Shown here in pieces: positions 6,154-50,825 of a stretch of DNA of 64,000 nt (position 1 is the stretch's first letter; each line of letters opens with the position of its first letter). The DNA is taken from assembly GCA_963753975.1 (NCBI GenBank), contig CAVWEH010000001.1, positions 160,001 through 224,000 on the forward strand. The letters are read 5' to 3'. Origin of the DNA: an uncultured delta proteobacterium. Its GTDB lineage: Bacteria > Desulfobacterota > Syntrophia > Syntrophales > Smithellaceae. The notes under the pieces are model-generated. The model had not been told where the DNA came from, did not search any database, and saw nothing but the letters and a program-made list of their open reading frames with translations. Both the position numbers and the translations under genes were made by a program.

Positions 6154-7953
6154 ATGTTCCTGCCGACTACTGCTTTAGAGTTAAAAAAATTAAAATGGGA
6201 TAAACTCGACATAATTCTTGTCACCGGCGATGCCTATATTGACAGCCCCTATATAGGAGTTGCCATTATCGGCCGGATTCTGTCGCATGCCGGGTATCGC
6301 GTAGGTATTATCGCCCAGCCGGATGTTAAAAGTGATGTTGATGTTCGCCGTCTGGGAGAGCCAGCACTGTTCTGGGGAATTACCGGCGGTTGTATGGATT
6401 CAATGATCGCCAACTACACGGCCATCAAGAAAAAAAGGCATGCCGATGATTTGACTGCCGGAGGAAAAAACATTCACCGTCCCGACCGCGCCGTTGTCGT
6501 GTATGCCAACCTGATTCGTCAGTATTTTAAAAATACTAGGCCACTGGTTTTGGGCGGCGTCGAGGCGAGTCTCCGCCGCGTTGCCCATTACGATTACTGG
6601 TCGGATTCCATCCGCCGCTCGATTTTATTTGATGCCCGCGCCGATATTCTTGTCTATGGCATGGCGGAAAAAGTCATACTGGAACTGGCACAAAAACTGA
6701 TGAGTGGAGAAGATACGAAAAATATCCGCGGCACTTGTTATATTGATTCTACTGCCGTACCCGGATACATTGAATTACCATCTTATGAAAAGGTTATCGC
6801 CGACAAAAGAGCTTTCATCCAAATGTTTAATTCATTTTACCGCAATAATGATCCGTCGACTGCCTGCGGTTTGTTTCAGCAGCACGGTTCCCGCTATCTG
6901 ATTCACAATCCGCCTCAACCTCATCTGACGGTTGAGGAATTGGATCAAATCTACGCTCTTGATTTCACGCGGGACGTCCACCCCTATTATAGTGAACAGG
7001 GGAAAGTTAGGGCTATGGATACAATTAAATTCTCACTGACAACACATCGCGGCTGCTATGGCGAATGCAATTTTTGTTCAATTGGCCTGCATGAAGGAAG
7101 AACGGTAATCAGCCGTAGCGACCAATCGATAATTAATGAGGCGCGCCAAATTGCCGCCCGCCCTGACTTTAGAGGCTATATTCCAGATGTGGGCGGGGCA
7201 ACAGCAAACATGTACGGGATCGACTGCCCGCGAAAAATGAGCCTAGGAGTCTGTGAGAATAAACGATGCCTTTACCCACAGGTCTGTACGTCCCTGAAGC
7301 CGGATCACAGCCGTCAGATCAATTTGCTTAGGAGTTTGCGCAAAATCAAAGGAGTAAAAAAAGTATTTGTTGCTTCCGGAATTCGCTATGATTTGCTGGA
7401 GGCCGATAAAAAACACTGCGATGCTTACCTGCAAGAGCTCGTTTTTCACCACGTCTCGGGCCAGTTAAAAGTTGCGCCGGAACACACTTCTCCCGGTGTC
7501 TTAAAACTGATGGGCAAGCCGCAGGCAAAGTCATTGACAAACTTCAAAGCGCTTTTTGAAAAAATTGATCACGGGTATGAACCACAAAGCAAGCCGCGAG
7601 GTACCACACCTTCCGCTACGCGGGATTGTTCGACTAAGCAATTTCCGCGCACTTCGTTACGGAAATTGCAGTTTCACAACAAGTCATCAGGGCAGAAACA
7701 ATTTCTTACTTATTACTTTATTGCTGCCCATCCGGGATGCGTCGAAGAAGATATGCGCGAACTAAAGGCTTTCGCCACCAGAGAACTGAAAATTAATCCG
7801 CAGCAGGTGCAAATATTTACGCCGCTTCCTTCCACTTATTCTGCTCTGATGTATTTTACCGGAATTGATCCAGCAACCGGCAGGAAGATTTTTGTGGAAA
7901 AGAATATCGCAAAAAAACAGAGACAGAAAGATATTGTTGTGGGAAGAAGTTAA
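6154..7953 (+). CDS. YgiQ/UPF0313-family radical SAM protein with a 37-aa in-frame repeat-derived insertion
   Basis: VTGDAYIDSP, CYGECNFC (CxxxCxxC), SGIRYDL, KVAPEH, YFIAAHPG. Confidence 0.9.
   Translation: MFLPTTALELKKLKWDKLDIILVTGDAYIDSPYIGVAIIGRILSHAGYRVGIIAQPDVKSDVDVRRLGEPALFWGITGGCMDSMIANYTAIKKKRHADDLTAGGKNIHRPDRAVVVYANLIRQYFKNTRPLVLGGVEASLRRVAHYDYWSDSIRRSILFDARADILVYGMAEKVILELAQKLMSGEDTKNIRGTCYIDSTAVPGYIELPSYEKVIADKRAFIQMFNSFYRNNDPSTACGLFQQHGSRYLIHNPPQPHLTVEELDQIYALDFTRDVHPYYSEQGKVRAMDTIKFSLTTHRGCYGECNFCSIGLHEGRTVISRSDQSIINEARQIAARPDFRGYIPDVGGATANMYGIDCPRKMSLGVCENKRCLYPQVCTSLKPDHSRQINLLRSLRKIKGVKKVFVASGIRYDLLEADKKHCDAYLQELVFHHVSGQLKVAPEHTSPGVLKLMGKPQAKSLTNFKALFEKIDHGYEPQSKPRGTTPSATRDCSTKQFPRTSLRKLQFHNKSSGQKQFLTYYFIAAHPGCVEEDMRELKAFATRELKINPQQVQIFTPLPSTYSALMYFTGIDPATGRKIFVEKNIAKKQRQKDIVVGRS
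7568..7678 (-). repeat. Hairpin element family 1, copy E (in frame inside the radical SAM gene)
   Basis: Reverse complement TGTGAAACTGCAATTTCCG...CGGAAATTGC..AGTCGAACAATCCCGCGTAGCGG...CATACCCGTGAT aligns with copies at 27539 and 50613. Confidence 0.9.
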
Positions 7954-8166
7954 TTAGAGACATCCCCAATATCTTCAAAGAGTCCACCTACAAACAAACG
8001 GAATCAAGGCAGTTAAAGTTTATTGATTACCAGTGGAAACATGCGATAATCACTCCCCGAATTCCGCGGCCCGTTTCTGATAGAGGGAGGGGGCAAAAAT
8101 GGTGGTGTTGCAGGAGAAGGCTGATGGGATCGATAGTCTTTACCGTCTCTTTGTTCTGAAACTGGA

Positions 8167-8460
8167 CTATACGTAAATCTCTTTATCAGGATGGGGAAGG
8201 ATCATCAGAATTAAGTATCCTGCTATAGCATACACGATAAGCGCGGCAAGGGTGACAAAATCAACCACGAAACCTGAAAATTTCAGGTCCGGATTGATTT
8301 TGGCAAATGGCGCTACAAGCAGCGCCGTGACACCATAAAGCCAGGCAACGAAAGGCGTACCTGCATTAACTACCAAAAACTTAAATACCAACCTGAAAGT
8401 TAAAAGTAGTTCGATAATGCCCACGACAATATTAATGAAAGCCCTTATAATTCTAAACAT
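8167..8460 (-). CDS. YggT-family small membrane protein
   Basis: 97 aa hydrophobic, N..TPFVAWLYGVT..LVAPF pattern. Confidence 0.7.
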   Translation of the reverse strand: MFRIIRAFINIVVGIIELLLTFRLVFKFLVVNAGTPFVAWLYGVTALLVAPFAKINPDLKFSGFVVDFVTLAALIVYAIAGYLILMILPHPDKEIYV

Positions 8461-8841
8461 AAATTTGTTTTAGTCCTGTTTTACTTAAGTTAATACAACT
8501 CCTTATGCTCTTTCGTATTCTATTGCTGAAAACATTTCTATTTTTGCTATTTGACTGTAAGTCTTCCGTGTAGTCAAAGTAAAAAAGTATTTTGTCAATG
8601 GCCAAACACAACTGTCCGGGTCAGGGTGATTGAAGCTGTAGATGTAGGAATGGAGATGAATCGATGATTTTGTCGTCAAACATCTCTAAATAACCTATTG
8701 ACTAAAGTAAACCAGATATTAAAATATTTTAAAAAGGAAATTATATACTTGACTAATTTTTTATTGATATAGACAATTGCAAGAGTTTCTTTTAGATCAG
8801 AATATAAATAGCGGAACGCGAAGAGGAAGAGAGACCGGGCA

Positions 8842-11800
8842 ATGAAGGCACTGGGTTTATGCTTAGGAGCTTCTACCATATCTATTGTTGAGCTGATCAA
8901 TTCTGCGGGCAAACCGCAGATTATTAATTACTCGCTGAATCAGCACGAAGGTGATCCCAAGAGGGCACTTCTGGCAGCGCTGGCCAAATATGATTTAAAA
9001 TCTTTTTCCCGTATCGGCGCTACTGGTCGAAAATTTCGCAAATTTGTCAATTTATCATTCATTTCTGAACCGGAAGCTGTTGAATATGCTTATCGGTTTG
9101 TCAAACCCTCCAACGTTTCCTGCCCGGCAGTAGTATCCGCAGGTGGAGAAACTTTCGTCGTTTACAGAATGAACAAACTCGGCCAGATAGCCAATGTCCT
9201 TACCGGTAATAAATGCGCTTCCGGCACCGGCGAATTTTTTCTCCAACAATTGCGTCGTATGAATGTTTCTTTAGAAGAAGCTGCCACCTGGGCAGCCAGC
9301 GAACAACCCTACAATGTTTCCGGCCGGTGCTCCGTATTTTGCAAATCGGATTGCACTCACGCCACGAATAAGGGCATTTCCAAAGCCAAGGTTACTGCTG
9401 GGCTATGCAAGATGATGGCTAATAAAATTTTGGAATTACTGAAAAAAGTAGAGCGTAAAAACATTATGGTTACAGGCGGGGCTTCCAGTAACAAGATGAT
9501 GATTGAGTACCTCAGGCGGGAAATCCCCGGTCTGATTGTGCCGAGGGAGGCTCCTTTTTTTGAAGCTCTGGGCGCTGCGCTTTGGGCTTGTGAAAATGAA
9601 ACCATGATTGTTACGGATGCGGAAGATTTGTTTAAAACAGAAATTTCTTCTTTTGACACCCTTCCTCCTCTGGAGCAATTTCGGCAACAGGTTGAATTTA
9701 AAGCAATTGAAAAAGCCATCGTACGGGAGGGAGATGTTTGCCTCCTCGGCCTAGATGTCGGCTCCACGACAACAAAGGCTGTATTGATCAGGAAAAGAGA
9801 CAATGCCTTCCTGGCCGACGTTTATTTGCGCACCAATGGCGATCCAGTCGGCGCTGCACGGCTTTGTTATGAGAGCCTTTTTAAGCAAATCAAAAAACAT
9901 ATTGATCCCGCCCTAATAATCATTGAAGGATTGGGCGTTTGTGGCTCCGGCCGCCAAATTGCCGGTTTGCATGCCCTGACCGACGGCGTAATCAACGAGA
10001 TTATTGCCCATGCAGCAGCCGCGGTCTATTTTGATCCGGCTGTTGATACCATTTTTGAAATCGGCGGTCAGGACGCCAAATATACTTATCTGACTAATTC
10101 TGTCGCGTCCGATTATGCCATGAATGAAGCCTGCTCGGCGGGAACTGGTTCCTTTCTGGAAGAATCCGCTTACGAAACATTGGGCGTAAAAATGGAAGAT
10201 ATAGCGGTAATCGCCCTCCAGGGCAAAAAGCCGCCCAACTTCAACGATCAATGTGCGGCATTCATTTCCTCCGACATGAAAAATGCGATCCACGACGGTG
10301 TTGCCCGTGAAGACATTGTGGCAGGGCTGATTTACTCAATCTGTATGAATTATTCCAACCGCGTTAAAGCAAACAGGCAGGTAGGCCAGAAAGTTTTTAT
10401 GCAAGGCGGTGTTTGCTATAACGAAGCAATCCCTCTGGCCATGTCCGCCCTTACAGGCAAACCGATCATTGTGCCACCTGAACCCGGCTTAATGGGGGCC
10501 TTTGGTGTCGCCGTCGAAGTGAAAAAAAGGATTGAACTGGGGCTGATTGAAAAAGAAAAATTTGATTTGGCGGGGCTAATCAGTCGTGAGGTCAAATATG
10601 ATGAACCCTTTATTTGCAAAGGGGGCAAAGAACAGTGCGATCGTAAATGTTCTATCTCTATAATTGAGCTCGAAGGGAGGAAGTATCCCTTCGGCGGCGC
10701 CTGCAACAGATATTACAATATGCAACACAATATTAAATATGATGTTGCGACATTTGATCTGGTTAATTTGCGGCATAAATTGATTTTTGAACAATATGCA
10801 GCGAAGGAAGCAGTTGGAGCTATACGTGGTTCAGTTGGATTCAATCGCAGTTTCGTCGTCAATACATATTTTCCGCTCTATTCCACTTTTTTTACTCAGC
10901 TGGGATATGAGCCCATAATTTGTGATTCTTATAATCAGTCCGGCATCGATAAAAAAGATGCTAGTTTTTGCTATCCGGCCGAATTATCTCACGGCTTCTT
11001 TCATGCCTTGCTTAATCAGGGAAAGTATCTTGATTTTATTTTTTTACCGCATTTCAAAGCATTGCCCAATGCTGACAAAACTACGGATTCCCAGGTTTGT
11101 CCCTTTGTGCAGGGAGAAACATATTATCTGCAAAGCACGTTTCGAAAGGAAATCGACGAACAGAAAAACCGGGGAACGAAAATATTGGCGCCCCTGCTCG
11201 ATCTTTCGGAAGGGCTGGAAACCGCAGAAAAACCGTTGATAGAAATTGCCAGGCGAATGGGATTAAACTCCCGTAAAGCGGCGGAAGCTTTCCGGACGGC
11301 TCTGCATCAGCAACTGGCCTGCCAGTCGAAAATGGAGGAAATCGGAAAGCAAGAGTTGGCGAAATTGGAGGAAAATCCGGATCAGGTGGCAATCGTTATT
11401 CTCGGACGTGCTTACTCCGGTCTCGTGGAAGAGGCCAATAAAGGAATTCCTATGATGATTGCTTCCCGCGGCTATCGGGTTATTCCTCTGGATTTTTTGC
11501 CGCTGTATCATAGGCGAAATAAACGGTGCATGTATTGGGGTATGGGACAGCAGATAATGAAAGCGGCAAACCTGGTTCAGGAACATCCACAGCTTTTCGG
11601 AACTTATATAACCAATTTTTCCTGCGGCCCGGATTCGTTTATGATTGGTTATTTCCGTGAAATAATGGGGTGCAAACCCTCTTTGACTCTAGAGCTGGAC
11701 AGTCATACTGCCAATGCAGGTTTAGAAACAAGGATAGAAGCTTTTCTGGACATCGTTGCCGCTTACCGTCAGCTTGTTTGCCAGAAAAAGATTATTCCAC

Positions 11801-13161
11801 GGGTCAGCTCGTTTAGGGCGGCAAAAACAACTATGCACAATGGAATTCCTACGGTAGTGTCTTCGGCAAACAAATTAATATCGATGACCGATCCCCGAGT
11901 GACCCTGCTCTTCCCATCAATGAACTGGCCGGCTTCGGAAATGCTAGGCGCCGCTTTTCGCAGTAAACGGTTCCATGCTTTTGTCCACCCGCCTGCCGAC
12001 GAAAATATTTTAAAAATCGGCCGCGCTCATACTTCCTGTAAAGAATGTTTGCCGCTGATTTTAACGACCGGAACATTGATCAATTATATCCGCAATCTGA
12101 GAAAGTCCGATGAAATCGTAGTGTATTTTATGCCGACAGGTAGCGGTCCCTGCCGTTTCGGCCAATATTCCATCTTTATGGAAGATTTAATCAAGCGCTT
12201 GGAAGTTCCCAACGTGGCCGTCTTTTCATTGACATCAGAAAATTCGTACGCGGGAATGGATAGGTCTTTCAGGCTGAGTGCCTGGTGGGCAATTGTTATT
12301 TCGGATATTCTGGAAGATATTCGTTCGATGCTGCTTGCAAATGCAAAAAATCGAAATGAAGCGTCGGAAATATACCATGAGGAATGCCGCCTCTTAATTG
12401 ACAAATTGCAGAGTGGTGATTATCAGAGCCTGCAGAACCAATTGATGAATAGTGTTGATCATTTTGCCGCAATACCATTATTGCGGCCAGCCCCGGAAGT
12501 ACCGGTCATCGTAATGGTTGGTGAAATTTATTGCCGCCGAGACACCCTTTCTCGGCAAAACATTACGGAAAAACTGGCCGATAAAGGGTTTGCCGTGATT
12601 TGCTCACCGGTGGGAGAATGGGTGCTTTACGCTGATTATCTAGTAGAAAAAAACCTTGTCCGGCATCGACTCTCGTATCTGGAAAAATTGAAGTTGCTAT
12701 TGACAAAAAAATATATGGATCACTATACTCGACGATTGAGCTCGATTATGAGCAGGTCCGGTCTGGTAGCTTCCACTCCTGTGAATATTAAGGAAATTAT
12801 TCACAATGCCTCGTCATTTATTTCTCCCCATCTTACCGGCGAAGCAATTCTGACTGTCGGCAGTGCTTTGACTGAAGTGGGTAGGCACGCCTGCGGTGTC
12901 ATATCTGTCGGTCCCTTCGGCTGCATGCCAAATCGCTTGGCTGAAGCGATCCTGAATGAAACGATGAACAGTAAAACTAAGCTGGCCCTTGATTCGCAAA
13001 ATAAATATCTGAAAAAAGCCTTTGCCCATTTTGATGATTTACCTTTTTTGGCAATCGAGACTGATGGTTCGCCTTTCCCGCAAGTTATCCATGCCAACAT
13101 CGAAGCGTTTTGTTTACGCGCGAACCGTGTCCATGAGTATATGCAGGCCGCCCGCCATTAA
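8842..13161 (+). CDS. Multidomain acyl-CoA dehydratase activase (two BadF/BadG/BcrA/BcrD ATPase domains plus DUF2229/HgdAB-like domains)
   Basis: GNKCASGTGEF, GRCSVFCKS, GLDVGSTTTK, EIGGQDAK, NEACSAGTGSF, NFSCGPDSF, GPFGCMPN. Confidence 0.88.
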   Translation: MKALGLCLGASTISIVELINSAGKPQIINYSLNQHEGDPKRALLAALAKYDLKSFSRIGATGRKFRKFVNLSFISEPEAVEYAYRFVKPSNVSCPAVVSAGGETFVVYRMNKLGQIANVLTGNKCASGTGEFFLQQLRRMNVSLEEAATWAASEQPYNVSGRCSVFCKSDCTHATNKGISKAKVTAGLCKMMANKILELLKKVERKNIMVTGGASSNKMMIEYLRREIPGLIVPREAPFFEALGAALWACENETMIVTDAEDLFKTEISSFDTLPPLEQFRQQVEFKAIEKAIVREGDVCLLGLDVGSTTTKAVLIRKRDNAFLADVYLRTNGDPVGAARLCYESLFKQIKKHIDPALIIIEGLGVCGSGRQIAGLHALTDGVINEIIAHAAAAVYFDPAVDTIFEIGGQDAKYTYLTNSVASDYAMNEACSAGTGSFLEESAYETLGVKMEDIAVIALQGKKPPNFNDQCAAFISSDMKNAIHDGVAREDIVAGLIYSICMNYSNRVKANRQVGQKVFMQGGVCYNEAIPLAMSALTGKPIIVPPEPGLMGAFGVAVEVKKRIELGLIEKEKFDLAGLISREVKYDEPFICKGGKEQCDRKCSISIIELEGRKYPFGGACNRYYNMQHNIKYDVATFDLVNLRHKLIFEQYAAKEAVGAIRGSVGFNRSFVVNTYFPLYSTFFTQLGYEPIICDSYNQSGIDKKDASFCYPAELSHGFFHALLNQGKYLDFIFLPHFKALPNADKTTDSQVCPFVQGETYYLQSTFRKEIDEQKNRGTKILAPLLDLSEGLETAEKPLIEIARRMGLNSRKAAEAFRTALHQQLACQSKMEEIGKQELAKLEENPDQVAIVILGRAYSGLVEEANKGIPMMIASRGYRVIPLDFLPLYHRRNKRCMYWGMGQQIMKAANLVQEHPQLFGTYITNFSCGPDSFMIGYFREIMGCKPSLTLELDSHTANAGLETRIEAFLDIVAAYRQLVCQKKIIPRVSSFRAAKTTMHNGIPTVVSSANKLISMTDPRVTLLFPSMNWPASEMLGAAFRSKRFHAFVHPPADENILKIGRAHTSCKECLPLILTTGTLINYIRNLRKSDEIVVYFMPTGSGPCRFGQYSIFMEDLIKRLEVPNVAVFSLTSENSYAGMDRSFRLSAWWAIVISDILEDIRSMLLANAKNRNEASEIYHEECRLLIDKLQSGDYQSLQNQLMNSVDHFAAIPLLRPAPEVPVIVMVGEIYCRRDTLSRQNITEKLADKGFAVICSPVGEWVLYADYLVEKNLVRHRLSYLEKLKLLLTKKYMDHYTRRLSSIMSRSGLVASTPVNIKEIIHNASSFISPHLTGEAILTVGSALTEVGRHACGVISVGPFGCMPNRLAEAILNETMNSKTKLALDSQNKYLKKAFAHFDDLPFLAIETDGSPFPQVIHANIEAFCLRANRVHEYMQAARH

Positions 13162-13409
13162 TAATTTCAATTTGAAGACTTTGCAAAAATGACTTATTCG
13201 CGCTGCCTGATAGATATTTGTCGGGCGTCAATTGTATTTATTACGGATTGAAGTCCCGCATGCTCGACAAGGATGACAATCTGTTTAGTTCAGGAAGAAG
13301 TCTTCATATAACTAGGAAGGGCAGCCATTACTATGAAGCGGCTTGGCCATACAATTTCGTTTGGAAGCTGCCGCCTGTTCGGCGCCACTCCCCGGAAGGG
13401 TAGAAAATT

Positions 13410-13658
13410 ATTATTGCGCGCCCTTTGGTTGCGCACCCGGTCAAAGGATACCGAGACGGCAATGAAGCTCCAATTTCAAAAGCGAAGTGCATTGAAATTG
13501 GCAAGCTGAATTGTCCAGCTTAAGCTCTGGTAAGGAGGAGGTTCCGCAGGCGTATTTGACATACGTCGAGGATGCTGACGATCCGGCATACGCCGGACAG
13601 GCTCCGCCAACAAGGTTAGCCAAAGAACGGAAGCGCATCCCGAAGGAAAGCGCATAAT
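13410..13658 (+). repeat. Repeat family 2 copy interrupted by a family-1 hairpin module (13463-13531)
   Basis: ATACCGAGACGGCAA[insert]GGAGG...GCAGGCGTA..TACGTCGAGGA..GCCAACAAGG aligns with the reverse complement of 29679-29803. Confidence 0.75.
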
Positions 13659-13723
13659 GAACAAGCTGCCTTTCTTTACCGATAATCGCCACTTGTAAAG
13701 TGGTGATTACAAGCATAATGGCA

Positions 13724-14068
13724 TTAAACCCGGCCGTATTTATCTTCCAGCCTTTCAATATCATCTTCGCCGAAATATTCGCCGGTTTGCACTTCAATAA
13801 TTACCAGATTTTCGGCAGATGAATTTTCTACACGGTGTTTAGCTCCTTTAGGAATGTCCAGCGTGCTGCCGACGCTTAAAGCAAAATTCTTGTCTTCCAC
13901 AATCGCGTTTCCCTTGCCGGAAACAATAAACCAATGTTCCGAACGCAACTTGTGAAGTTGCAAGCTCAAAACGCCGCCCGGCGCAACAACGATTCTTTTC
14001 ACTTTATGGTCCGGGGCATCGGATAATACTTCAAAATATCCCCAAGGTCGTTTATTATTCGCTTCCAT
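13724..14068 (-). CDS. Cupin protein, mannose-6-phosphate isomerase type II C-terminal-like
   Basis: RPWG, LSLQLH..RSEHW, EVQTGEYFGEDDIERLEDKYGR. Confidence 0.9.
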   Translation of the reverse strand: MEANNKRPWGYFEVLSDAPDHKVKRIVVAPGGVLSLQLHKLRSEHWFIVSGKGNAIVEDKNFALSVGSTLDIPKGAKHRVENSSAENLVIIEVQTGEYFGEDDIERLEDKYGRV

Positions 14069-27182: not shown

Positions 27183-27375
27183 ATCACGGGAACCCCCAAT
27201 TCAAGCTGCGGGGTCCCCTCCGCTTTGCGGGATTGTCCACCGCTTCCAAGCGGTATAATTCGACTTGCAAATTTCAGTTCACTGCGTTTCTGAAATTTGA
27301 GTCTCATTACAACTTGCCGATTCCGACGTGTGACCTTCAGGTTATATGCTTCACTTTCGGAATTGGAGTTTCGCA
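27183..27375 (-). repeat. Hairpin element family 1, copy C (with nested 72-bp module 27238-27309)
   Basis: Near-identical to 63841-63978 over most of its length; ends CCCGTGAT. Confidence 0.92.
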
Positions 27376-27538
27376 AATAAATATCTTGCATTTTTCCCAA
27401 TTATTGATAAAAGCCGCCTCATTTAATGAGGGTTGGGTAACTTTTTTATATATGATATAAGAAATTTGCCAATAATCAATAATTGTCTTAATTTACAGGA
27501 CAATAATTTTTGTGTCAAGACCTTTGCCGGGATAGAAA

Positions 27539-27650
27539 ATCACGGGTATGAAAACCCAAAGCAAGCTGCGGAATATTATACCCTCCGCTTTGCGGGATTG
27601 TTCAACTTGCCAATTCCGCTACGCTTCGCTTTCGAAATTGGAGTTTCACA
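27539..27650 (-). repeat. Hairpin element family 1, copy D (core form)
   Basis: Reverse complement TGTGAAACTCCAATTTCG..GCGAAGC..GGAATTGGCAAGTTGAACAATCCCGCAAAGCGGAGGGTAT...CATACCCGTGAT. Confidence 0.92.
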
Positions 27651-27657
27651 AATAAAC

Positions 27658-28725
27658 ATGAATAGGATAAGAGTTAAAGCTGGTGAGCGAGTTTACAAAA
27701 TTATCAAGGATGGCGGTTTTGATCTAAATTCCGTTTCGACGTATTATGGGGCGGCAGTAGGGCCAAGATGGTTGATTGCCAGTGGCTTTGATTTAACTCT
27801 CTTGAAAGGCGGATTTTTAGGCCGTTCCAGAGCAGTTAATTTGGTTGGTTCCTCTGCCGGAGCGTGGCGTTTCGCCGCCTGGCTACAACCGGAAGCTGCG
27901 CAATGTTATCAGAAACTTTTAAATGCCTATATAAATACAAGATACTTCCGAAAAGATAATCCTTCCAGCGTGTTGCAAAAAATTACCGGCCTCATTAATG
28001 AATATCTGGAAGACGACGCGTTGCCTTTTGCTTTAGCGAATAAAAGGTATCGTTTAGCCATAATTACCGCCCGGTCACGCGGTCTTGTTGCTTCAGAAAC
28101 TCAGTGGTTACAGAAAGTAGGTTTGGTAACTTGCTATTTATTTAATCGCCTCAGCCGCAATAATATTTACCATTTTGCGGAGAGGGTTGTATTTTATAAT
28201 TGTTCCATGCCGCCTCCCTTTTGTTTACAGCCGCAGTTCCGCGGCCGCTATGTAAGAATCAATGAAATCAATTTTAAGTACGCGGTAATGGCATCGGGAG
28301 CCATACCTCTTGTTGTTGCCGGCGTGCGCAACATTTATGGTGCTCCACGCGGCATTTACCGTGACGGCGGGCTCATTGATTATCATCTTACGCACCAATT
28401 TGCCGCTAAAGAAAACGAAACAGTGCTTTTCTTTCATCATCAGGAACGGATCATTCCGGGCTGGCTCGATAAAAATCTGATGCACCGTGTGCCGGACGAG
28501 GAAACATTAAGCAATGTCTTGATGGTATTTCCCACACAAAATTTTGTGGAAAAGCTTCCGGGTGAAAAAGTTCCCGAACGCGCTGATTTTCTCGCCTACC
28601 TTGATGATCAGGAAACAAGAATTAAAAATTGGTATAAAGCCGTGGAATTGTCTGCCCCGCTGGGCGAGGATTTTATAGAATTGGTGGAAAGCGGCAGGCT
28701 AAAGGACGTGGTCGAAAGACTCTAA
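27658..28725 (+). CDS. Patatin-like phospholipase family protein
   Basis: GSSAG nucleophile elbow, ASGAIP, DGG; upstream part of the listed ORF is repeat-derived. Confidence 0.8.
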   Translation: MNRIRVKAGERVYKIIKDGGFDLNSVSTYYGAAVGPRWLIASGFDLTLLKGGFLGRSRAVNLVGSSAGAWRFAAWLQPEAAQCYQKLLNAYINTRYFRKDNPSSVLQKITGLINEYLEDDALPFALANKRYRLAIITARSRGLVASETQWLQKVGLVTCYLFNRLSRNNIYHFAERVVFYNCSMPPPFCLQPQFRGRYVRINEINFKYAVMASGAIPLVVAGVRNIYGAPRGIYRDGGLIDYHLTHQFAAKENETVLFFHHQERIIPGWLDKNLMHRVPDEETLSNVLMVFPTQNFVEKLPGEKVPERADFLAYLDDQETRIKNWYKAVELSAPLGEDFIELVESGRLKDVVERL

Positions 28726-34216: not shown

Positions 34217-34723
34217 ATGCGAAAATTATCCCATGTAAATAGAAAAGGTCAAGTTCAAATGGTGGATATTACAGCTAAGGGGGAGACTCTTCGCCAAGCG
34301 AAGGCTGTCGGAATTGTCCAGATGGATAGCCGGACTTTGGAGTTGATTGAAAAAGGGCAAATTGTTAAAGGGAATGTTTTGACAGCGGCAAAGATTGCGG
34401 GCATTATGGCGGCAAAAAAAACCGGAGAACTTATTCCTCTTTGCCATCCGCTGGAGGTGACCGCAGTAGAAGTAAATTTAGAAATTGACCGCAATAAATC
34501 TCAAATCATCATTCAATCGGAAGTAAAAAATATGGGCAGAACGGGCGTGGAAATGGAAGCTCTTACCGCTGTCAGTATAGCTGCCTTGACTATTTACGAT
34601 ATGTGCAAGGCGGTTGATAAGAGAATAATTATAGGAAATATCATGCTTCTGGAAAAAAGCGGCGGTAAAAGCGGCACTTTTGTTCGTGAAACTCCAATTC
34701 CGAAAGCGAAGCGTATAACCTGA
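34217..34723 (+). CDS. moaC: Cyclic pyranopterin monophosphate synthase
   Basis: LSH..MVD, AGIMAAK, LIPLCHP, TGVEMEAL, YDMCKAVD, KSGGKSG. Confidence 0.95.
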   Translation: MRKLSHVNRKGQVQMVDITAKGETLRQAKAVGIVQMDSRTLELIEKGQIVKGNVLTAAKIAGIMAAKKTGELIPLCHPLEVTAVEVNLEIDRNKSQIIIQSEVKNMGRTGVEMEALTAVSIAALTIYDMCKAVDKRIIIGNIMLLEKSGGKSGTFVRETPIPKAKRIT

Positions 34724-34903
34724 AGGTCACATGTCGGAATTGGTAAGTTGTAATGAGACCCAAACTTCAGAAACAGAGTGCATAACCTGAAGGTCATCTA
34801 CGACTGGAGCTTGCAGGTCGAATTATCCCGCACAGCGGAGGATATGATCCGTAGCTTGCTGTGGACTCGGTTTCTGAGCTTGCTTGGAAATCATATCCGT
34901 GAT
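34685..34903 (+). repeat. Hairpin element family 1, copy B (overlaps the moaC 3' end)
   Basis: CGTGAAACTCCAATTCCG...TCGGAATTGGTAAGTTGTAATGAGACC...CCCGCACAGCGG...CATATCCGTGAT. Confidence 0.9.
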
Positions 34904-34982: not shown

Positions 34983-35498
34983 ATGGCACAAAATATTTTT
35001 AAAGTCAGGCGGGCTTTTCTTATACCTTTAACGGCAGTAATTGTCCTTCTGTTTCTGTTGTTGCTGATCAGTTTATTTAGAGGGCAAATGGGGGAAAGAA
35101 TAGTTCTGGCGGTTTTTTTTATTGGTTCTTTATTGACCGACATTGAAACGGCAAGAAGAGAAATTGTCGTGACCGAAGAAGGGTTGCAATTAAAAAAGTT
35201 TTTCCGGACAAAAAATTTTTTTTGGCGGGAAATCACCCATCTGGGGGTTGTGGAACTGCGCAATAAAGCCTATTTTTTATTAACAACGACCAAGGGATTT
35301 TATTTTTTCTCCAATATATTAGAAAAACACTCTTTACTTGTTCGCTCTCTTGTGGATAAGCTCGGAGCAGAAAAAGTGGAAATAGAAGTAAAAAATTATT
35401 TAGATCATCCTGTCGAGCGACTTTCTTTGATTGTTATGAGTTGGATTACGGTATTTATCATTATTGTCGTTTTAATTTTAAAATTTTTGCCAGCTTAA
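34983..35498 (+). CDS. Hypothetical membrane protein (PH-like domain possible)
   Basis: Two N-terminal TM helices, soluble beta-rich middle (W.EIT), one C-terminal TM. Confidence 0.7.
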   Translation: MAQNIFKVRRAFLIPLTAVIVLLFLLLLISLFRGQMGERIVLAVFFIGSLLTDIETARREIVVTEEGLQLKKFFRTKNFFWREITHLGVVELRNKAYFLLTTTKGFYFFSNILEKHSLLVRSLVDKLGAEKVEIEVKNYLDHPVERLSLIVMSWITVFIIIVVLILKFLPA

Positions 35499-35574
35499 AT
35501 TTAAAAAAACATATTGAGAAACACACATTTTTAATTCTTAATTTAATCTTGTCCGGAAGGGGGAACTTCAAAAA

Positions 35575-35880
35575 ATGCAATCGAAAAAGCAAAAGAGTTC
35601 AAGAGTAGTAATGAATGTGAAGGAAACCCCTTACGCGGTTGTTGAAGAAGTGTTGGAAAAAAAGCTGGAAGATGTTGCCACCGTTTTATCGGCTTCCGGC
35701 GGTCGTAAAAGTAAGCTTTACGAACAAGTTATGTCGATGGTGGAAAAAGGCTTGTTTAAAATTGCTCTGCGCCGTTCCAACTACGTGAAAAGTACGGCGG
35801 CCGTTTTTCTGGGAATTAGCCGCAATACGTTTACCGATAAAATGGTCAAATTAGGTATCAACTGTGAAAAGAATAAATAA
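35575..35880 (+). CDS. Fis-family HTH protein
   Basis: LYEQVM..VEK.L...AL......AA..LGISRNT...K. Confidence 0.8.
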   Translation: MQSKKQKSSRVVMNVKETPYAVVEEVLEKKLEDVATVLSASGGRKSKLYEQVMSMVEKGLFKIALRRSNYVKSTAAVFLGISRNTFTDKMVKLGINCEKNK

Positions 35881-35897
35881 GTACTATAAAAACATCT

Positions 35898-37166
35898 ATG
35901 ACTAGAGCTTTTAAAAAAAATCTAAACTTACCTGAAAAGGTAACTTGTCTCTTAAAGAAAGGGGTTCGGATGACGGCCCCTTTTTCTGTGGAAATCGGCG
36001 AGGAAGTAAATCCGGACAGAATTGACGGTTCTTTAATAATTTACGGTGCGGCAAGGATTTGCGGAGAAAATACGTTAATTGCTCAAGATGTAAAACTGGG
36101 ATATGAAGCGCCTGTTAATTTGATTAACTGCCAACTGGGAACGGCAGTGGAGCTCAAGGGTGGGTACTTTGCCGATTCGGTTTTCCTGGATAAGGTAGCA
36201 ATGGGTAGCAATGCACAAGTCCGCTCCGGTTGCCTTTTAGAAGAAGAATCCAGGGGAAATCACACTGTCGGTCTAAAGCAGACAATCCTATTTCCTTTCG
36301 TGACTCTGGGCAGTCTGATCAATTTTTGTGATTGCCTGATAGCGGGTGGCACAAGCCGGAAAAATCATAGCGAAGTAGGTAGTTCTTATATCCATTTCAA
36401 TTACACTCCCCAGCAGGACAAGGCAACCCCTTCTTTAATGGGAGATGTTCCGCGAGGAGTAATGTTGCGCGAAGAGCCGATATTCCTGGGCGGTCAGGGG
36501 GGGCTGGTGGGGCCGCTGCAAATAGCATACGGTATAGTTATTCCGGCAGGTGTTATTTGCCGGCAGGATTGCCTAACTGCGGGAATGATTTGCTCTCCTT
36601 CTGTTTTATCACGCGAGCGCAAAAAATTTATTCCCGGAAATTATGGTGATATTAGCCGCAAGGTTCACCACAATATAGTTTATATCGCCAATTTATTGGC
36701 TTTAAGACAGTGGTATCGCTTTGTTCGCCGCGAATTCTTTATTAGATCTAAGTACGGCGAGGCTCTATATGCCGGGACCCTTGATGTTCTAGATAAAGCC
36801 ATTGCCGAAAGAATCAGACAGATGCGACTGTTTGCGCAAAACTTGGAGAAAACAATTATGCTTGCAGAAAAAATGAAGAAAGGCTTGTCTGGTACGGCGC
36901 GGCGCAAACAAAAACAATTTATCCGCGATTGGCCGCAGATGGAGGAGCATCTATCCGGTAATAATGAGGAAGAAATTTCTTTGAAGAAAAAGGGAACGTT
37001 TATAAAAATATTACAACGCCGGTCAGGTAAGACTAATTCTTATCTGCAGACAATGCGGTCATTAACGTCCCTGGAAACCAGAGTGGGTGTAGATTGGTTG
37101 AATGATGTTGTTTGGGAGGTTGCCGCCGGGTGTATGAAAATCTCTGGCGTTCTGCGGCAAAAATAA
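35898..37166 (+). CDS. GlmU-like left-handed beta-helix acetyltransferase with no recognisable uridyltransferase domain
   Basis: Hexapeptide repeats; EVGSSYIHFNY..QDKAT...GD resembles the GlmU C-domain; directly upstream of the glmS-like gene. Confidence 0.6.
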   Translation: MTRAFKKNLNLPEKVTCLLKKGVRMTAPFSVEIGEEVNPDRIDGSLIIYGAARICGENTLIAQDVKLGYEAPVNLINCQLGTAVELKGGYFADSVFLDKVAMGSNAQVRSGCLLEEESRGNHTVGLKQTILFPFVTLGSLINFCDCLIAGGTSRKNHSEVGSSYIHFNYTPQQDKATPSLMGDVPRGVMLREEPIFLGGQGGLVGPLQIAYGIVIPAGVICRQDCLTAGMICSPSVLSRERKKFIPGNYGDISRKVHHNIVYIANLLALRQWYRFVRREFFIRSKYGEALYAGTLDVLDKAIAERIRQMRLFAQNLEKTIMLAEKMKKGLSGTARRKQKQFIRDWPQMEEHLSGNNEEEISLKKKGTFIKILQRRSGKTNSYLQTMRSLTSLETRVGVDWLNDVVWEVAAGCMKISGVLRQK

Positions 37167-37172
37167 GAAACA

Positions 37173-40100
37173 ATGTTAGTTGCGCAAATATTAAGTACGA
37201 TAAAAGATATAAGACTTTATTTCAAGGTCTGCAAAATATTTGTTGGAAAAAATCCGGCTTACATTAGCGCTCCGGCAATAATATTTTTCCCGGTTATACC
37301 TTTTCAGCTTAACTGCGGTTTTGCCGGTTTGATGACTTTTCGGGCTCGGCAAAAATCTGCAAGTTTAAATGCTGATTTAGAGCTTATGCAATTGTGGGAT
37401 AAGATTAAACGTTCGTCACTTGAAAATGTTTTAGCTGGAGATATTGTCGCTAAAGCTTATATGTGCGGACTTGATGTACTTACCTCCATGGAAAAAGCTG
37501 CGTTGGAGCTGAAGCGGGAGAGTGCTCAGGAAACTCTTTTCTTTCAGAAGCAAAGAGCCAAAAAACTTTCTAATTTAGCCGATGCAATAAAAGCATTTTT
37601 GGCTCAGGAAGAGAAGATGCTGGAAGATCAAGCTGTAAAATTTACCTCTGCTGATCTGGAAACCATCAATCGCGGGATTATTCTGCTTAAGGATATTCAG
37701 TGGACTTTGGGAAAAGACATTTTGGCGAATTTTGATAAAATTACCGCTGTTTCGGGTGCGGCTAAACCAACGGCAATAAACCCGGCAGCCTTTAAAAAAT
37801 ACCGGAAAATCAATTTCCTGCTCAATTCCCTGGACCGCCTCGAAGTGCGAGGGCGAGATTCGGCGGGACTGCAAATTGTATTCACCCTCGAAAACGAAAA
37901 AACGATGGAAAACATAATGCTCGAGCTGAAGGAAAAAAGTTTATATGAAGACTACTGGAAGCGGTCACGGGAGGGGGACCTCGCTAATGGTTCAATACGG
38001 GTTGCGCCTGTAGTATTTACCGGAAGCAAAAAGGGAATAAATATAACCTTTACCTATAAGACGTTTTCTATCGTCGGCGAATTGGGTCGCAACGTCCGTG
38101 ATTTAAGACAGGTCATCAGAGAAGACCAAATCCTGCAATGTTTTGCCCCGTTGGATACGGCGTGCGAAACAGCTATTACCCATACGCGCTGGGCTTCCGT
38201 TGGCTCCATTACGGAAGAAAATTGTCATCCGATCAATAACTTCAAGCCTGATCAAGCCGTTCAATCCTTCCCTTTTTATCCGAAATCCAAGGCTCAAATT
38301 AATATAGTCTTAAATGGAGATATTGATAACTATTCGGCACTCCGCGCGGACTTGGAAACGCGTAATGAATGGATTGCGCCCGAAATTACAACCGATACAA
38401 AAGCTATCCCTCTGCAAATTGAGAAATATTTAATGGCCGGAGATAATCTTGCCGACTCCTTTCGCTTGGCGCTGAAAGATTTTGATGGGTCGCATGCCAT
38501 AGCTATGACCAGTGATTTGGAACCCGGCAAGGTTTTTTTGGCGCTTAAGGGCAGCGGTCAGTCTATCTATGTTGGGATTGGGTCCGATCAGTATATGTTT
38601 TCTTCGGAACTCTATGGTCTGGTAGAAGTGATGCCGAATTTCATAAAAATGAACGGCGAGTCGAATGTTGATGGTGAAAACTCGGCAGCGGGACAAATTT
38701 TTATTTTGGACCAAAATTCCTGCGGGGGGTTAGCAGGAATTGCCGCTTATCATTATGACGGCACAAAAATTAGTTTAAAAGAAAGTGAAATACAAAAAGC
38801 CGAAATGACGACCCGCGACATCGATCGCGGCGCTTATCCGCATTTTTTCCTGAAGGAAATTTTCGAATCTGTTGTCTCCATAAGAAAAACCTTGCGGGGC
38901 AAATACCGCATTTTGACGAGCGACAAATCTTTGCCGCAAGTCATCTTCAACTTAGGCGCAGATATTGTTCCGGAGGCTGTTCGCGTAGGTCTCCAAAACG
39001 GTGCTATTAAGAATATCATAGTCATCGGCCACGGGACTGCCGCTGTTGCCGGGCTGGCCATAGCCGATGCTCTGGAATCTTATTTGAAGGGCAGAAGCCT
39101 TAATATAATGGCCAGAGTGGCTTCCGAATTAAGCGGTTTTTTGTTAAAAGACGATTTGTCGGATACACTCGTAATTCCGATCACTCAATCCGGAACAACA
39201 ACAGATACGAATCGTGCTGTGGCAATGGCCAAAGAGAGGGGCGCTTTTATAATTTCCATAGTAAACAGAAGGCAATCGGATATTACCACTAAATCGCATG
39301 GAATATTTTACACCAGCGACGGTCGCGATATAGAAATGTCCGTTGCTTCCACAAAAGCTTTTTATTCCCAGATCATTGCCGGGCAAGTTCTAGCCCTTTT
39401 TCTGGCGCAAGTAATGAAAACCAGAACCGATGACTACATAGTTCGGGAACTGCACAATCTGGAGACGGTGCCCAAATTAATGGCGCGGGTCTTTGAACGA
39501 AGGACTCAAATTTCCGCTTCGGTCGATAAAACTTTGGCCAAGAAATTCTGGGCGGTTGTAGGCAGCGGGCCCAATAAAGCGGCCGCCGATGAAATAAGAA
39601 TCAAACTCAGCGAGCTTTGTTATAAAACGATTTCTTCCGATATCGTGGAAAACAAAAAGCATATTGATTTATCGGCAGAACCTTTAATATTGGTTTGCGC
39701 TTCCGGTAATCCGGAGCCGGTTGTGGAAGATATTGCCAAAGACGTGGCAATTTTTAAAGCACACAAAGCCGCAGTTATAGTTTTTGCGGAAGAGGGGGAC
39801 GATCGGTTCGATAAAATCGCCGATGCGGTGATTCCAATTCCCTCTGCTTCCATGCCGCTGCCGGTAATACTGAATACTATGGCGGGGCACTTGTGGGGAT
39901 ATTATGCTGCTTGTGCTATTGATAAAGAAGCTCTCGTTTTCCGGGAATTTAGAAACCGTTTGAATTTGGCTCTGACCGAACAGGCCAAGATAAATTACTC
40001 GTTGTATGAGAGAATTGCGGATCCCCATTTTCGCCACCTGATAAATGATTTTTACCATACCTTTAATGGTCAACGTAATGATGGCGCTTTCAATTTATTA

Positions 40101-40901: not shown

Positions 40902-40952
40902 AGTTTGTCGGCGAACTTGCGGGAGAAACCGCATGAGACTCTGCAATCATGA

Positions 40953-42587
<1,635 letters not shown>

Positions 42588-50579: not shown

Positions 50580-50612
50580 AAATACCTCCTATTCCTTTCC
50601 ATATCTTTTTAT

Positions 50613-50723
50613 TGAGAGACTCAAATTTCAAAAACGAAGTGCATTGAAATTTGTAAGTCGAACAATCCCGCACAGCGGAGGGTATAATACCCCAAAGCTC
50701 GCTTTGAGGTTCATACCCGTGAT
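50613..50723 (+). repeat. Hairpin element family 1, copy F (core form)
   Basis: TGAGAGACTCAAATTTCAA..CGAAG..TTGAAATTTGTAAGTCGAACAATCCCGCACAGCGGAGGGTAT...CATACCCGTGAT. Confidence 0.92.
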
Positions 50724-50825
50724 TAAAGAGTCCTCCGGTAACATGGAGTGTCTATTTTGCGCTACTATTGTACAAAACAATCACCGCACGGCCCACCGGA
50801 AAAACAAGGAGAAATTGACACAACT

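What the first reader, a model, noticed from the sequence alone, without database searches (positions are those of the whole stretch)
7567..7677. Element inserted in frame inside a radical SAM gene, adding 37 amino acids
Seen: the YgiQ-type ORF reads FKALFEKI-[DHGYEPQSKPRGTTPSATRDCSTKQFPRTSLRKLQFH]-NKSSGQKQFLTYYFIAAHPG. The bracketed 111 nt are the reverse complement of the family-1 core and have no stop. Removing them gives the F-x7-G-x-x-QFL spacing I recall for this family. Established parallel: Rickettsia palindromic elements insert in frame in coding genes. Inference: the element creates new peptide segments, or is removed or bypassed at the DNA/RNA level. Copy D also reads open in the same orientation (NHGYENPKQAAE...).
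Basis: partly seen in the sequence, partly recalled or inferred. Interest (0 to 1): 0.8.

Follow-up and report, generated by a model that had tools for sequence, protein, structure and literature searches.

The report
Hairpin repeat translated inside ygiQ gene
A small hairpin-forming repeat that normally lies between genes sits in frame inside a conserved radical SAM enzyme gene of an uncultured Smithellaceae bacterium, where it most likely adds a floppy 37-residue loop, a rare situation best known from Rickettsia.

Summary
Confirmed. Window 7567-7677 (111 nt, 37 codons, no stop) interrupts the single-copy ygiQ gene (6154-7953, +) between FEKI and NKSSG. The segment belongs to a modular dispersed repeat with 222 matches at 147 loci in the 2.43-Mb genome. 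Its 14-bp 3' hairpin covaries strongly among copies.

Only 3 of 91 YgiQ sequences compared carry the insert. A database search found 7 further insert-bearing proteins, all YgiQ. Independent assemblies and metagenome contigs bridge both junctions, so it is not a chimera.

The gene stays under purifying selection (dN/dS 0.09-0.125). AlphaFold places the insert as a disordered helix-to-strand loop (pLDDT <50 in a 90.9 model).

This is the only clean mid-gene copy among the 147 loci, and later length changes kept the frame. That argues for read-through translation rather than removal, but no RNA or protein data exist.

Two extras:
- The insert evolves as slowly as the enzyme and has too few variable third codon positions (6/37 versus 218/494).
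- One nested lineage (G005) has lost it in frame, with the two junction codons altered.

This is a new member of a known kind (RPE-like in-frame repeat insertions). The scan has noted the same phenomenon on other DNA.

The parts
6154..7953 (+). ygiQ (YgiQ-family radical SAM protein), 599 aa including the insert. It is the only full-length match to this query in the genome.
   Evidence: TIGR03904 777.7 bits against a cut-off of 462; PF08497. One search finds only one full-length match in G000.
7567..7677 (+). In-frame insert of 111 nt (37 codons, residues 472-508). It is a compact copy of the dispersed repeat family, 86/111 identical to the family consensus.
7633..7672 (+). The 3' hairpin of the element inside the coding sequence. 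The core is a 10-bp stem GCAATTTCCG/CGGAAATTGC (7638-7647 and 7660-7669) with a 12-nt loop.
   Evidence: Fold. The homologous 14-bp stem covaries across 50 full-length copies.
27183..27375 (+). Intergenic family copy with extra modules. It is present in G010 and absent (empty site) in G011 and G005.
27539..27651 (+). It is present in G010 and absent in G011 and G005.
34685..34903 (-). Intergenic family locus (a full copy plus an extra 3' module). It is the only other window copy shared with G011.
50616..50723 (-). Best-scoring full-length family copy in the genome (104.6 bits). A stop-free frame spans it, but its translation did not look like a protein to me; I did not check it against a family library.
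13461..13530 (-). Partial copy (3' hairpin module only), downstream of the 1439-aa ORF.

Best explanation
A non-autonomous, modular, hairpin-bearing repeat occupies about 147 loci in this genome, almost all between genes, and has been mobile within the genus. Its compact 111-nt form inserted once into ygiQ. It landed in one of the two frame-and-orientation combinations (of six) in which the family consensus has no stop. The mRNA is most likely read straight through, and the 37 extra polar, basic residues form a disordered loop. This loop lies between a helix (458-472) and the next strand (517-524) of the radical SAM domain. That is a helix-to-strand connection, which in barrel folds lies on the face away from the active site. 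The enzyme therefore tolerates the insert and has kept it through diversification of the lineage. Shown here: the insertion, its repeat origin, its phylogenetic distribution, continued purifying selection on the host gene, and the low-confidence loop in the model. Inferred: translation of the insert, its surface position away from the Fe-S/SAM site, and retained enzyme activity.
For: (1) Presence and absence are clean. Exactly 37 codons lie between FEKI and NKSSG in G000, G011 and G010, and nothing lies there in 9 genus or family orthologues or 79 distant YgiQ, so 3 of 91 carry it. A region search for residues 466-515 returned 8 proteins, all carrying PF08497, of 519-599 aa. No other protein family in the 329-1049 aa range searched carries the peptide.

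(2) It is not an artefact. Three independent assemblies and one metagenome contig (L111) carry it. Contigs from 3 public runs bridge a junction with at least 31 nt on each side: X1 record 1 spans 7601-7832 with 0 differences, X2 record 2 spans 7333-7631, X2 record 4 spans 7634-7739, and X4 record 21 spans 7596-7740.

(3) The host gene is still selected. dN/dS of the flanks between insert-bearing pairs is 0.092-0.125.

(4) There is a selection filter. Of 147 repeat loci, 5 are spanned by an open frame with at least 40 codons on each side. Only the ygiQ one looks like a gene.

(5) Later length changes kept the frame. P0008 has a 30-residue version lacking the hairpin-encoded part, and G005 lost all 37 codons.

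(6) The AlphaFold model has mean pLDDT 90.9 and pTM 0.89. Residues 475-509 are below 50, between helix 458-472 and strand 517-524. The fold matches radical SAM structures such as 9ccb (E 1e-16) and TsrM.

(7) No Rfam family, including introns, matches 7400-7850 at E up to 1.
Against: There is no direct evidence of translation. No RNA run holds the stretch, and no proteomics was available.

The substitution pattern inside the insert does not show the usual excess at third codon positions. Among 4 DNA sequences, 4, 3 and 6 of 37 sites vary at positions 1, 2 and 3, against 59, 51 and 218 of 494 in the flanks. Protein-level selection on the insert is therefore not demonstrated, and some nucleotide-level constraint is possible.

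The G010 copy of ygiQ has a 58-nt deletion near codons 43-62. In that species the gene may be broken, or the MAG may be in error.

I had no model coordinates. The 'face away from the active site' statement rests on secondary-structure order plus textbook barrel topology, not on a measured distance.
Confidence: 0.8

Rival explanations
1. Domesticated or dual-use insert. The 111 nt are kept by selection for a function of their own and are not merely tolerated. That function could be an mRNA or DNA hairpin or binding site, or a useful peptide loop.
For: The insert is as conserved as the enzyme. Insert amino-acid identity is 0.69-0.95 against flank identity 0.78-0.92 across 36 pairs of 9 sequences. 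G000 and G011 differ at 10/111 nt (9.0%), against 24.5% at third codon positions and 15.2% in alignable intergenic DNA of the same syntenic region. Variable third positions number 6/37 against 218/494 in the flanks (Fisher p 0.0008), and 0 of 458 sliding 37-codon windows of the gene are as low. One A-T to G-C double change keeps a pair in the 5' stem.
Against: The 3' hairpin is not strictly kept. G011 (position 78) and L111 (position 95) each carry an uncompensated mismatch in the 10-bp stem. P0008 has lost the hairpin-encoded part altogether, and G005 lost the whole insert. Positions that vary between orthologues are not significantly the ones that vary in the family (Mann-Whitney p 0.12). 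Only 13 variable sites are available. Orthologous intergenic copies are also only about 11-13% diverged, so slow change may be general for this DNA.
Confidence: 0.12
2. The insert is removed or bypassed (intron-like splicing, translational bypass, or programmed DNA excision), so the mature protein lacks it.
For: The element is hairpin-rich. One lineage (G005) lost it from the DNA in frame.
Against: No Rfam family matches. 111 nt is far too small for known self-splicing introns (my own knowledge). A removal mechanism would not need an open, in-frame insert, yet the only mid-gene copy among 147 loci is open and in frame. Its variants also stay in frame. Insert-bearing DNA is what is seen in 3 runs' contigs.
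Confidence: 0.03
3. The insertion inactivated YgiQ, and the gene is a decaying pseudogene.
For: G010's copy has a 58-nt frameshifting deletion upstream. YgiQ function is unknown, and the hit list of a literature search included an E. coli 'y-ome' paper that mentions YgiQ (search listing only).
Against: Full-length ORFs (593-599 aa) are found in G000, G011, L111 and P0003-P0008. Flank dN/dS is 0.09-0.125 on branches that post-date the insertion. All invariant family residues listed by the 83-sequence alignment, including C301, C305 and C308, are present in the query.
Confidence: 0.03
4. The insert is young and spread sideways into the same site of related lineages, by homing-like or recombinational transfer. 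This would explain both its low divergence and its patchy distribution on the gene tree.
For: Synonymous divergence is lower in the insert than in the flanks. Insert-bearers are not one clade on the YgiQ tree (p-AU 0.0012).
Against: Divergence resumes immediately outside the insert. By my count on the alignment, G000 and G011 differ at about 16 of the 60 flanking nucleotides, so no co-transferred tract is seen. G005's junction codons (Y, S) differ from the I/L-N found in the other insert-free sequences, which fits a deletion scar and not a never-occupied site. With G005 left out, a single origin is not rejected (p-AU 0.095).
Confidence: 0.02

Closest known systems
Rickettsia palindromic elements (RPE). 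Source: Ogata et al. 2000 and 2002, as summarised in passages I read of the review PMC10969869.
   Same: Both are short (about 100-150 bp), hairpin-forming dispersed repeats with an open frame, inserted in frame in an unrelated metabolic gene and presumably compatible with fold and function.
   Different: The lineage differs (Smithellaceae-like anaerobe rather than Rickettsia). Sequence relatedness to RPEs was not tested. [quoted passage not shown] Here 1 of 147 loci is intragenic. This family is modular, with tandem 3' hairpin units.
Intragenic ERIC and other enterobacterial small mobile sequences, and MITEs carrying ORFs. Source: Delihas 2007 and the Anabaena MITEs, as cited in PMC10969869 (passages read).
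   Same: Both are mostly intergenic repeat families with occasional in-frame intragenic copies that form translational fusions.
   Different: No terminal inverted repeats were found in the 30-nt ends of the consensus (best local score 6). The target-site duplication is unresolved: three extra A at two A-rich sites, ambiguous. No parent IS was identified.
REP/BIME elements mobilised by RAYT (Y1) transposases (from my own knowledge).
   Same: Both are hairpin modules arranged in mosaics and tandem arrays, with pairing kept by covariation between copies.
   Different: No Y1 transposase (PF01797) was found in this 95%-complete genome, while the same search rang in 6 of 14 control genomes. The unit is longer (about 70-112 nt). 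REPs are by definition extragenic.

Membership tests
YgiQ family radical SAM protein (TIGR03904 / PF08497) | Whole-protein score above the curated cut-off | tested here: met
   TIGR03904 scores 777.7 bits against a cut-off of 462.35. PF08497 scores 404.5 against 25.
YgiQ family radical SAM protein (TIGR03904 / PF08497) | CxxxCxxC cluster motif and family-invariant residues present | tested here: met
   C301, C305 and C308 and 52 other invariant columns are present in the 83-sequence alignment. The model's fold matches radical SAM structures.
Rickettsia palindromic elements (RPE-1 to RPE-10) | Sequence membership in one of the described RPE families | not tested
Rfam returned nothing.
Rickettsia palindromic elements (RPE-1 to RPE-10) | Recurrent in-frame insertion in many unrelated genes of one genome | tested here: not met
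   1 of 147 loci in G000 is intragenic. The open frames checked in relatives proved to be upstream read-through.
MITE | Terminal inverted repeats | tested here: not met
   The ends of the consensus show no inverted match (best local score 6 over 30-nt ends, subterminal).
MITE | Target-site duplication of fixed length | tested here: inconclusive
   Two pairs of empty and filled sites show three extra A in A-runs. This may be an AAA duplication or A-rich termini. The ygiQ site gives a net gain of 111 nt.
MITE | Small, non-coding-capacity, multi-copy and demonstrably mobile (presence/absence between relatives) | tested here: met
   222 matches at 147 loci. Two window copies are present in G000 and G010 but absent in G011 and G005.
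REP/BIME with RAYT | A cognate Y1 (RAYT / IS200-like) transposase in the genome | tested here: not met
   PF01797 has 0 matches in G000 (95.1% complete). The control search rang in 6 of 14 genomes.
REP/BIME with RAYT | Imperfect palindromes whose pairing is conserved | tested here: met
   14 pairs of the 3' hairpin are paired in 34/46 to 49/50 copies, with many double changes. For example, pair 68-103 is TA in 33 and CG in 13, and pair 79-94 is AT in 30 and GC in 12.

The most novel reading that the evidence does not exclude
The insert is not passive baggage. Its nucleotides are held by selection inside ygiQ, for example as an mRNA-level hairpin or binding site superimposed on codons. The family can also leave a gene again by near-precise, frame-preserving excision, as in G005. 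Together these would make it a reversible 'loop cassette' for proteins.
Probability: 0.1. Interest if true: 0.6.

Novelty: new member of a known kind. Interest (0 to 1): 0.35.

Why it matters
It extends the 'selfish DNA inside proteins' phenomenon, best known from Rickettsia, to a free-living anaerobic lineage (Smithellaceae-like MAGs). It also provides a clean natural series for one site in one enzyme:
- a never-occupied form;
- the full 37-residue insert;
- a shortened, hairpin-less insert;
- a secondarily emptied site with a two-codon scar.

Such a series can be used to ask how much a conserved enzyme tolerates at a helix-to-strand loop, and whether repeats in coding DNA are constrained as nucleic acid, as peptide or both. 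For annotation, it warns that YgiQ length variants here are due to repeats. It also warns that open frames through this repeat upstream of genes are not coding.

Tried and rejected
- Rfam scan of 7400-7850 at E up to 1 gave no match.
- PDB sequence search found no YgiQ structure, only a weak radical SAM core hit, 9ccb.
- Sequencing runs: no RNA holder is listed. The 20 rows are DNA contigs with shares of 0.33 or less, so expression and retention in RNA could not be examined.
- I looked for other in-frame coding copies. Four further stop-free frames in G000 and two in relatives G005 and G017 turned out to be read-through upstream of real starts, or frames whose translation did not look like a protein to me. 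I rejected them as coding insertions.
- Y1 transposase search in the own genome found none. Other transposase families were not searched.
- Terminal inverted repeats: none found.
- I tested whether sites that vary between orthologues coincide with sites that vary in the family. The result was not significant (p 0.12).
- RNAalifold on three orthologous inserts gave a competing fold and only one compensatory pair, so it was not decisive.
- The DNA tree of ygiQ with 12 genomes left the G000/G010/G011/G005 quartet unresolved, and one clade of the three insert-bearers was not rejected (p-AU 0.10).
- A 6.5-kb neighbouring region put G005 outside the trio. That region is an outlier for G005 (79% against 85-90% in the matches), so I do not use it as a species tree.
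- The metagenome scan returned only one close relative with DNA (L111). I did not check whether L111 is the same sequence as P0003.
- Literature: searches for 'YgiQ' with 'radical SAM' and for 'Smithella', 'repeat' and 'miniature inverted-repeat' listed nothing on this repeat family or on an insert in YgiQ. These were search listings only.
Full report
OBSERVATION

The window has an ORF at 6154-7953 (+, 599 aa).

The protein is a YgiQ-family radical SAM protein. TIGR03904 matches at E 5.8e-234 and 777.7 bits against a cut-off of 462. The match comes in two stretches, the first ending at residue 474. PF08497 matches at E 3.7e-121.

The bracketed residues are codons 472-508, which are nucleotides 7567-7677: 111 nt with no stop.

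THE INSERT IS A COPY OF A DISPERSED REPEAT

- BLAST of 7501-7750 against the window finds about 115-nt matches at 77% identity at 50609-50726 (opposite strand) and 27539-27651 (same strand), plus partial ones.
- The window is C1:160001-224000 of a 2.43-Mb, 6-contig genome (about 43-46% G+C per contig). It is 95.1% complete.
- Three rounds of nhmmer give 222 matches at E up to 1e-3. They merge into 147 loci covering 20,325 nt.
- 52 matches span the whole 112-position model. The rest are mostly the 3' part, starting near model positions 40-44 or 59-64, and often lie head to tail. The family is therefore modular.
- The ygiQ copy is the compact form and is 86/111 identical to the consensus.
- The 3' module is a 14-bp hairpin whose pairing is kept across 50 full-length copies by many double changes. 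Pair 68-103 is TA in 33 copies and CG in 13. Pair 72-101 is AT in 33 and CG in 11. Pair 79-94 is AT in 30 and GC in 12. Between 34/46 and 49/50 copies are paired per position.
- In the ygiQ copy this hairpin is a perfect 10-bp stem at 7638-7647 and 7660-7669.
- No Rfam family matches.
- The consensus has no terminal inverted repeats.
- No Y1 (IS200/RAYT) transposase was found in the genome, although the same search rang in 6 of 14 control genomes.

The family has been mobile recently. Window copies at 27183-27375 and 27539-27651 are present in G000 and G010 but are clean empty sites in G011 and G005. Both sit in A-runs, with three extra A in the filled form.

In 58 kb of G011 syntenic with the window, only the ygiQ copy and one other copy (window about 34.7-34.9 kb) are shared.

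With one copy as query, matches were found in 7 of 81 genomes sampled from the order, G000 included. They are concentrated in its own family.

WHO HAS THE INSERT

Among 12 genus and family orthologues, G000, G011 and G010 have the 37 codons. Nine others, including G005 at 88% identity, have nothing between FEK(I/L/Y/F) and the following residue.

After adding 79 distant YgiQ from named genomes, 3 of 91 sequences have at least 5 residues in those columns.

A search of the 5.8-billion-protein collection with residues 466-515 returned 8 proteins among 10 candidates. All carry PF08497 and are 519-599 aa. One of them corresponds to the G010 gene and is named by its source as a Smithellaceae bacterium MAG. 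The organism is therefore most likely a Smithellaceae member. The best named full-length hit outside the genus is a Smithella sp. MAG at 70%.

No other protein family in the searched length range carries the peptide.

NOT AN ASSEMBLY ARTEFACT

Three genome assemblies and one metagenome contig (L111) carry the insert.

Contigs from public runs bridge a junction with at least 31 nt on each side:
- X1 record 1 spans 7601-7832 with 0 differences.
- X2 record 2 spans 7333-7631.
- X2 record 4 spans 7634-7739.
- X4 record 21 spans 7596-7740.

The same runs also hold insert-free alleles from relatives. One contig each in X2 and X4 skips 7565-7685 with 8 other letters between. One X4 contig skips 7565-7692 with 15 letters between. 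Each is a net loss of 111 nt.

IS IT TRANSLATED?

There is no direct evidence: no RNA run was listed. The indirect evidence is as follows.

(a) The family consensus is stop-free in only 2 of 6 frames. This is my own reading of the consensus printed. The ygiQ copy sits in one of those frames, and its net length is a multiple of three.

(b) Of 147 loci, only 5 are spanned by a stop-free frame with at least 40 codons on each side. Four of these, to my eye, look like upstream read-through or non-protein-like frames. Two similar cases in relatives were also upstream read-through. If the cell could remove the element from RNA, copies in genes in any frame should be tolerated. What is seen instead is the one class that translation can survive.

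(c) Later changes kept the frame. P0008 has a 30-residue version lacking the part encoded by the 3' hairpin, and G005 lost all 37 codons.

(d) The host gene remains under purifying selection between insert-bearing species. Flank dN/dS is 0.125, 0.101 and 0.092.

G000 has no second full-length ygiQ by this query.

STRUCTURE

An AlphaFold model built from an 83-sequence alignment has mean pLDDT 90.9 and pTM 0.89. The only long low-confidence segment is 475-509 (pLDDT below 50), between helix 458-472 and strand 517-524.

The model matches cobalamin-type and MiaB-type radical SAM structures: 9ccb at E 1e-16 and 6wtf at 2e-13.

A helix-to-strand connection in a barrel fold lies on the face opposite the catalytic strand ends. 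This is established knowledge of TIM-like barrels.

The surrounding linker (NKSSGQK) is the least conserved part of this region.

HOW THE INSERT EVOLVES

Across nine insert-bearing sequences, insert identity (0.69-0.95) tracks flank identity (0.78-0.92).

G000 and G011 differ at 10/111 insert nucleotides (9.0%). In the same syntenic region, codon positions 1, 2 and 3 differ at 7.2%, 4.7% and 24.5%, and alignable intergenic DNA differs at 15.2%.

With four DNA sequences, variable sites in the insert number 4, 3 and 6 of 37 at codon positions 1, 2 and 3. In the flanks they number 59, 51 and 218 of 494. The third-position deficit has Fisher p 0.0008, and none of 458 sliding 37-codon windows in the gene is as low. 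With three sequences the figures are p 0.012 and 0 of 458.

The insert is therefore not drifting, and synonymous sites are unusually quiet. This hints at constraint on the nucleotides.

Several results count against a strict structural role:
- Two of the four sequences carry an uncompensated mismatch in the 10-bp stem.
- P0008 lacks the hairpin part.
- The match between orthologue-variable and family-variable positions is not significant (p 0.12).
- Only 13 sites vary.
- The comparisons share branches and are not independent.

One double change (A-T in G000, G-C in the others) keeps a pair in the 5' stem.

A SECONDARY LOSS

On a protein tree of 18 YgiQ built without the insert columns, G005 (no insert) lies inside a clade of six insert-bearers with support 100/98. 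Insert-bearing P0005 is the next branch out (96/92).

- Holding all nine insert-bearers together is rejected (delta lnL 47.8, p-AU 0.0012).
- Holding the seven nearest together without G005 is rejected (delta lnL 35.1, p-AU 0.007).
- With G005 left out, one origin is not rejected (p-AU 0.095).

These groups were named after seeing the tree, which weakens the tests.

At the DNA level, G005's flanks are almost identical to G011's up to the site. By my count on the alignment, 6 of the 9 junction nucleotides differ, giving Y-S where the other eight insert-free genus and family orthologues have I/L/F followed by N. The simplest reading is an in-frame deletion of the element that left a two-codon scar.

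A 12-genome DNA tree alone could not resolve this (p-AU 0.10). A neighbouring 6.5-kb region places G005 outside the trio. That region is an outlier for G005: 79% identity against 85-90% in the matches. Recombination in this neighbourhood therefore remains a caveat.

COMPARISON WITH WHAT IS KNOWN

In-frame intragenic copies of small hairpin repeats are established. [quoted passage not shown] The review also describes intragenic ERIC elements and MITEs with ORFs.

The present case works like an RPE but is not shown to be one. Sequence relatedness was not tested, and recurrent genic insertion was tested and not met (1 of 147 loci).

It fails the MITE test for terminal inverted repeats and the REP/RAYT test for a Y1 transposase. 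It shares hairpin covariation and mosaic arrays with REP/BIME elements.

Earlier notes of this scan report the same phenomenon in several other genomes.

VERDICT

It is a new member of a known kind.

The quiet synonymous sites and the scarred in-frame loss in G005 are the parts worth a follow-up. Interest is 0.35.

Noticed in passing
L003 (G010:C12), locus about 1500-1560, codons about 43-62 of ygiQ: The G010 orthologue has a 58-nt deletion, not a multiple of three, that removes the conserved segment holding Q55 and P56. This is either a MAG assembly error (82% complete, 210 contigs) or a recently broken gene. dN/dS involving G010 is not raised.
   Followed up: partly
whole genome G000: With crude ORF calls, repeat loci between convergent genes are on the + strand in 21 cases and on the - strand in 1. 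Gene orientation cannot explain this, because the context is symmetric. It may be an artefact of ORF calling through the repeat or a replication-strand effect.
   Followed up: no
G061:C57:10317-10431: A genome of another family of the order holds a single copy that is 95% identical over 115 nt to window 50610-50730. That is closer than any second copy in G000 itself (82% or less). It suggests recent horizontal transfer or a mis-binned contig.
   Followed up: no
window 7943-13731 against G011:C13: The 1439-aa fused ATPase/dehydratase-like ORF (8842-13161) has no aligned counterpart at the syntenic place in G011, so there is a gene-content difference right next to ygiQ.
   Followed up: no
G000:C4:307547-307907: Four head-to-tail units of the 3' hairpin module lie at a regular 94-nt spacing. 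This is a tandem array of the repeat's module rather than separate insertions.
   Followed up: no
window 35000-42500 against G005:C31:136825-144328: G005 is only 79% identical here, against 85-90% in the window 26000-29000 matches. G011 stays at 88-89%. This is a likely recombination or replacement tract in one lineage.
   Followed up: partly
window 27433-28725 (C1:187433-188725): A start-to-stop ORF runs through repeat copy D into the downstream gene, so automatic annotation could call a gene with a spurious N-terminal extension of about 75 residues. The relatives without the copy begin the ORF at the ATG just after it.
   Followed up: partly
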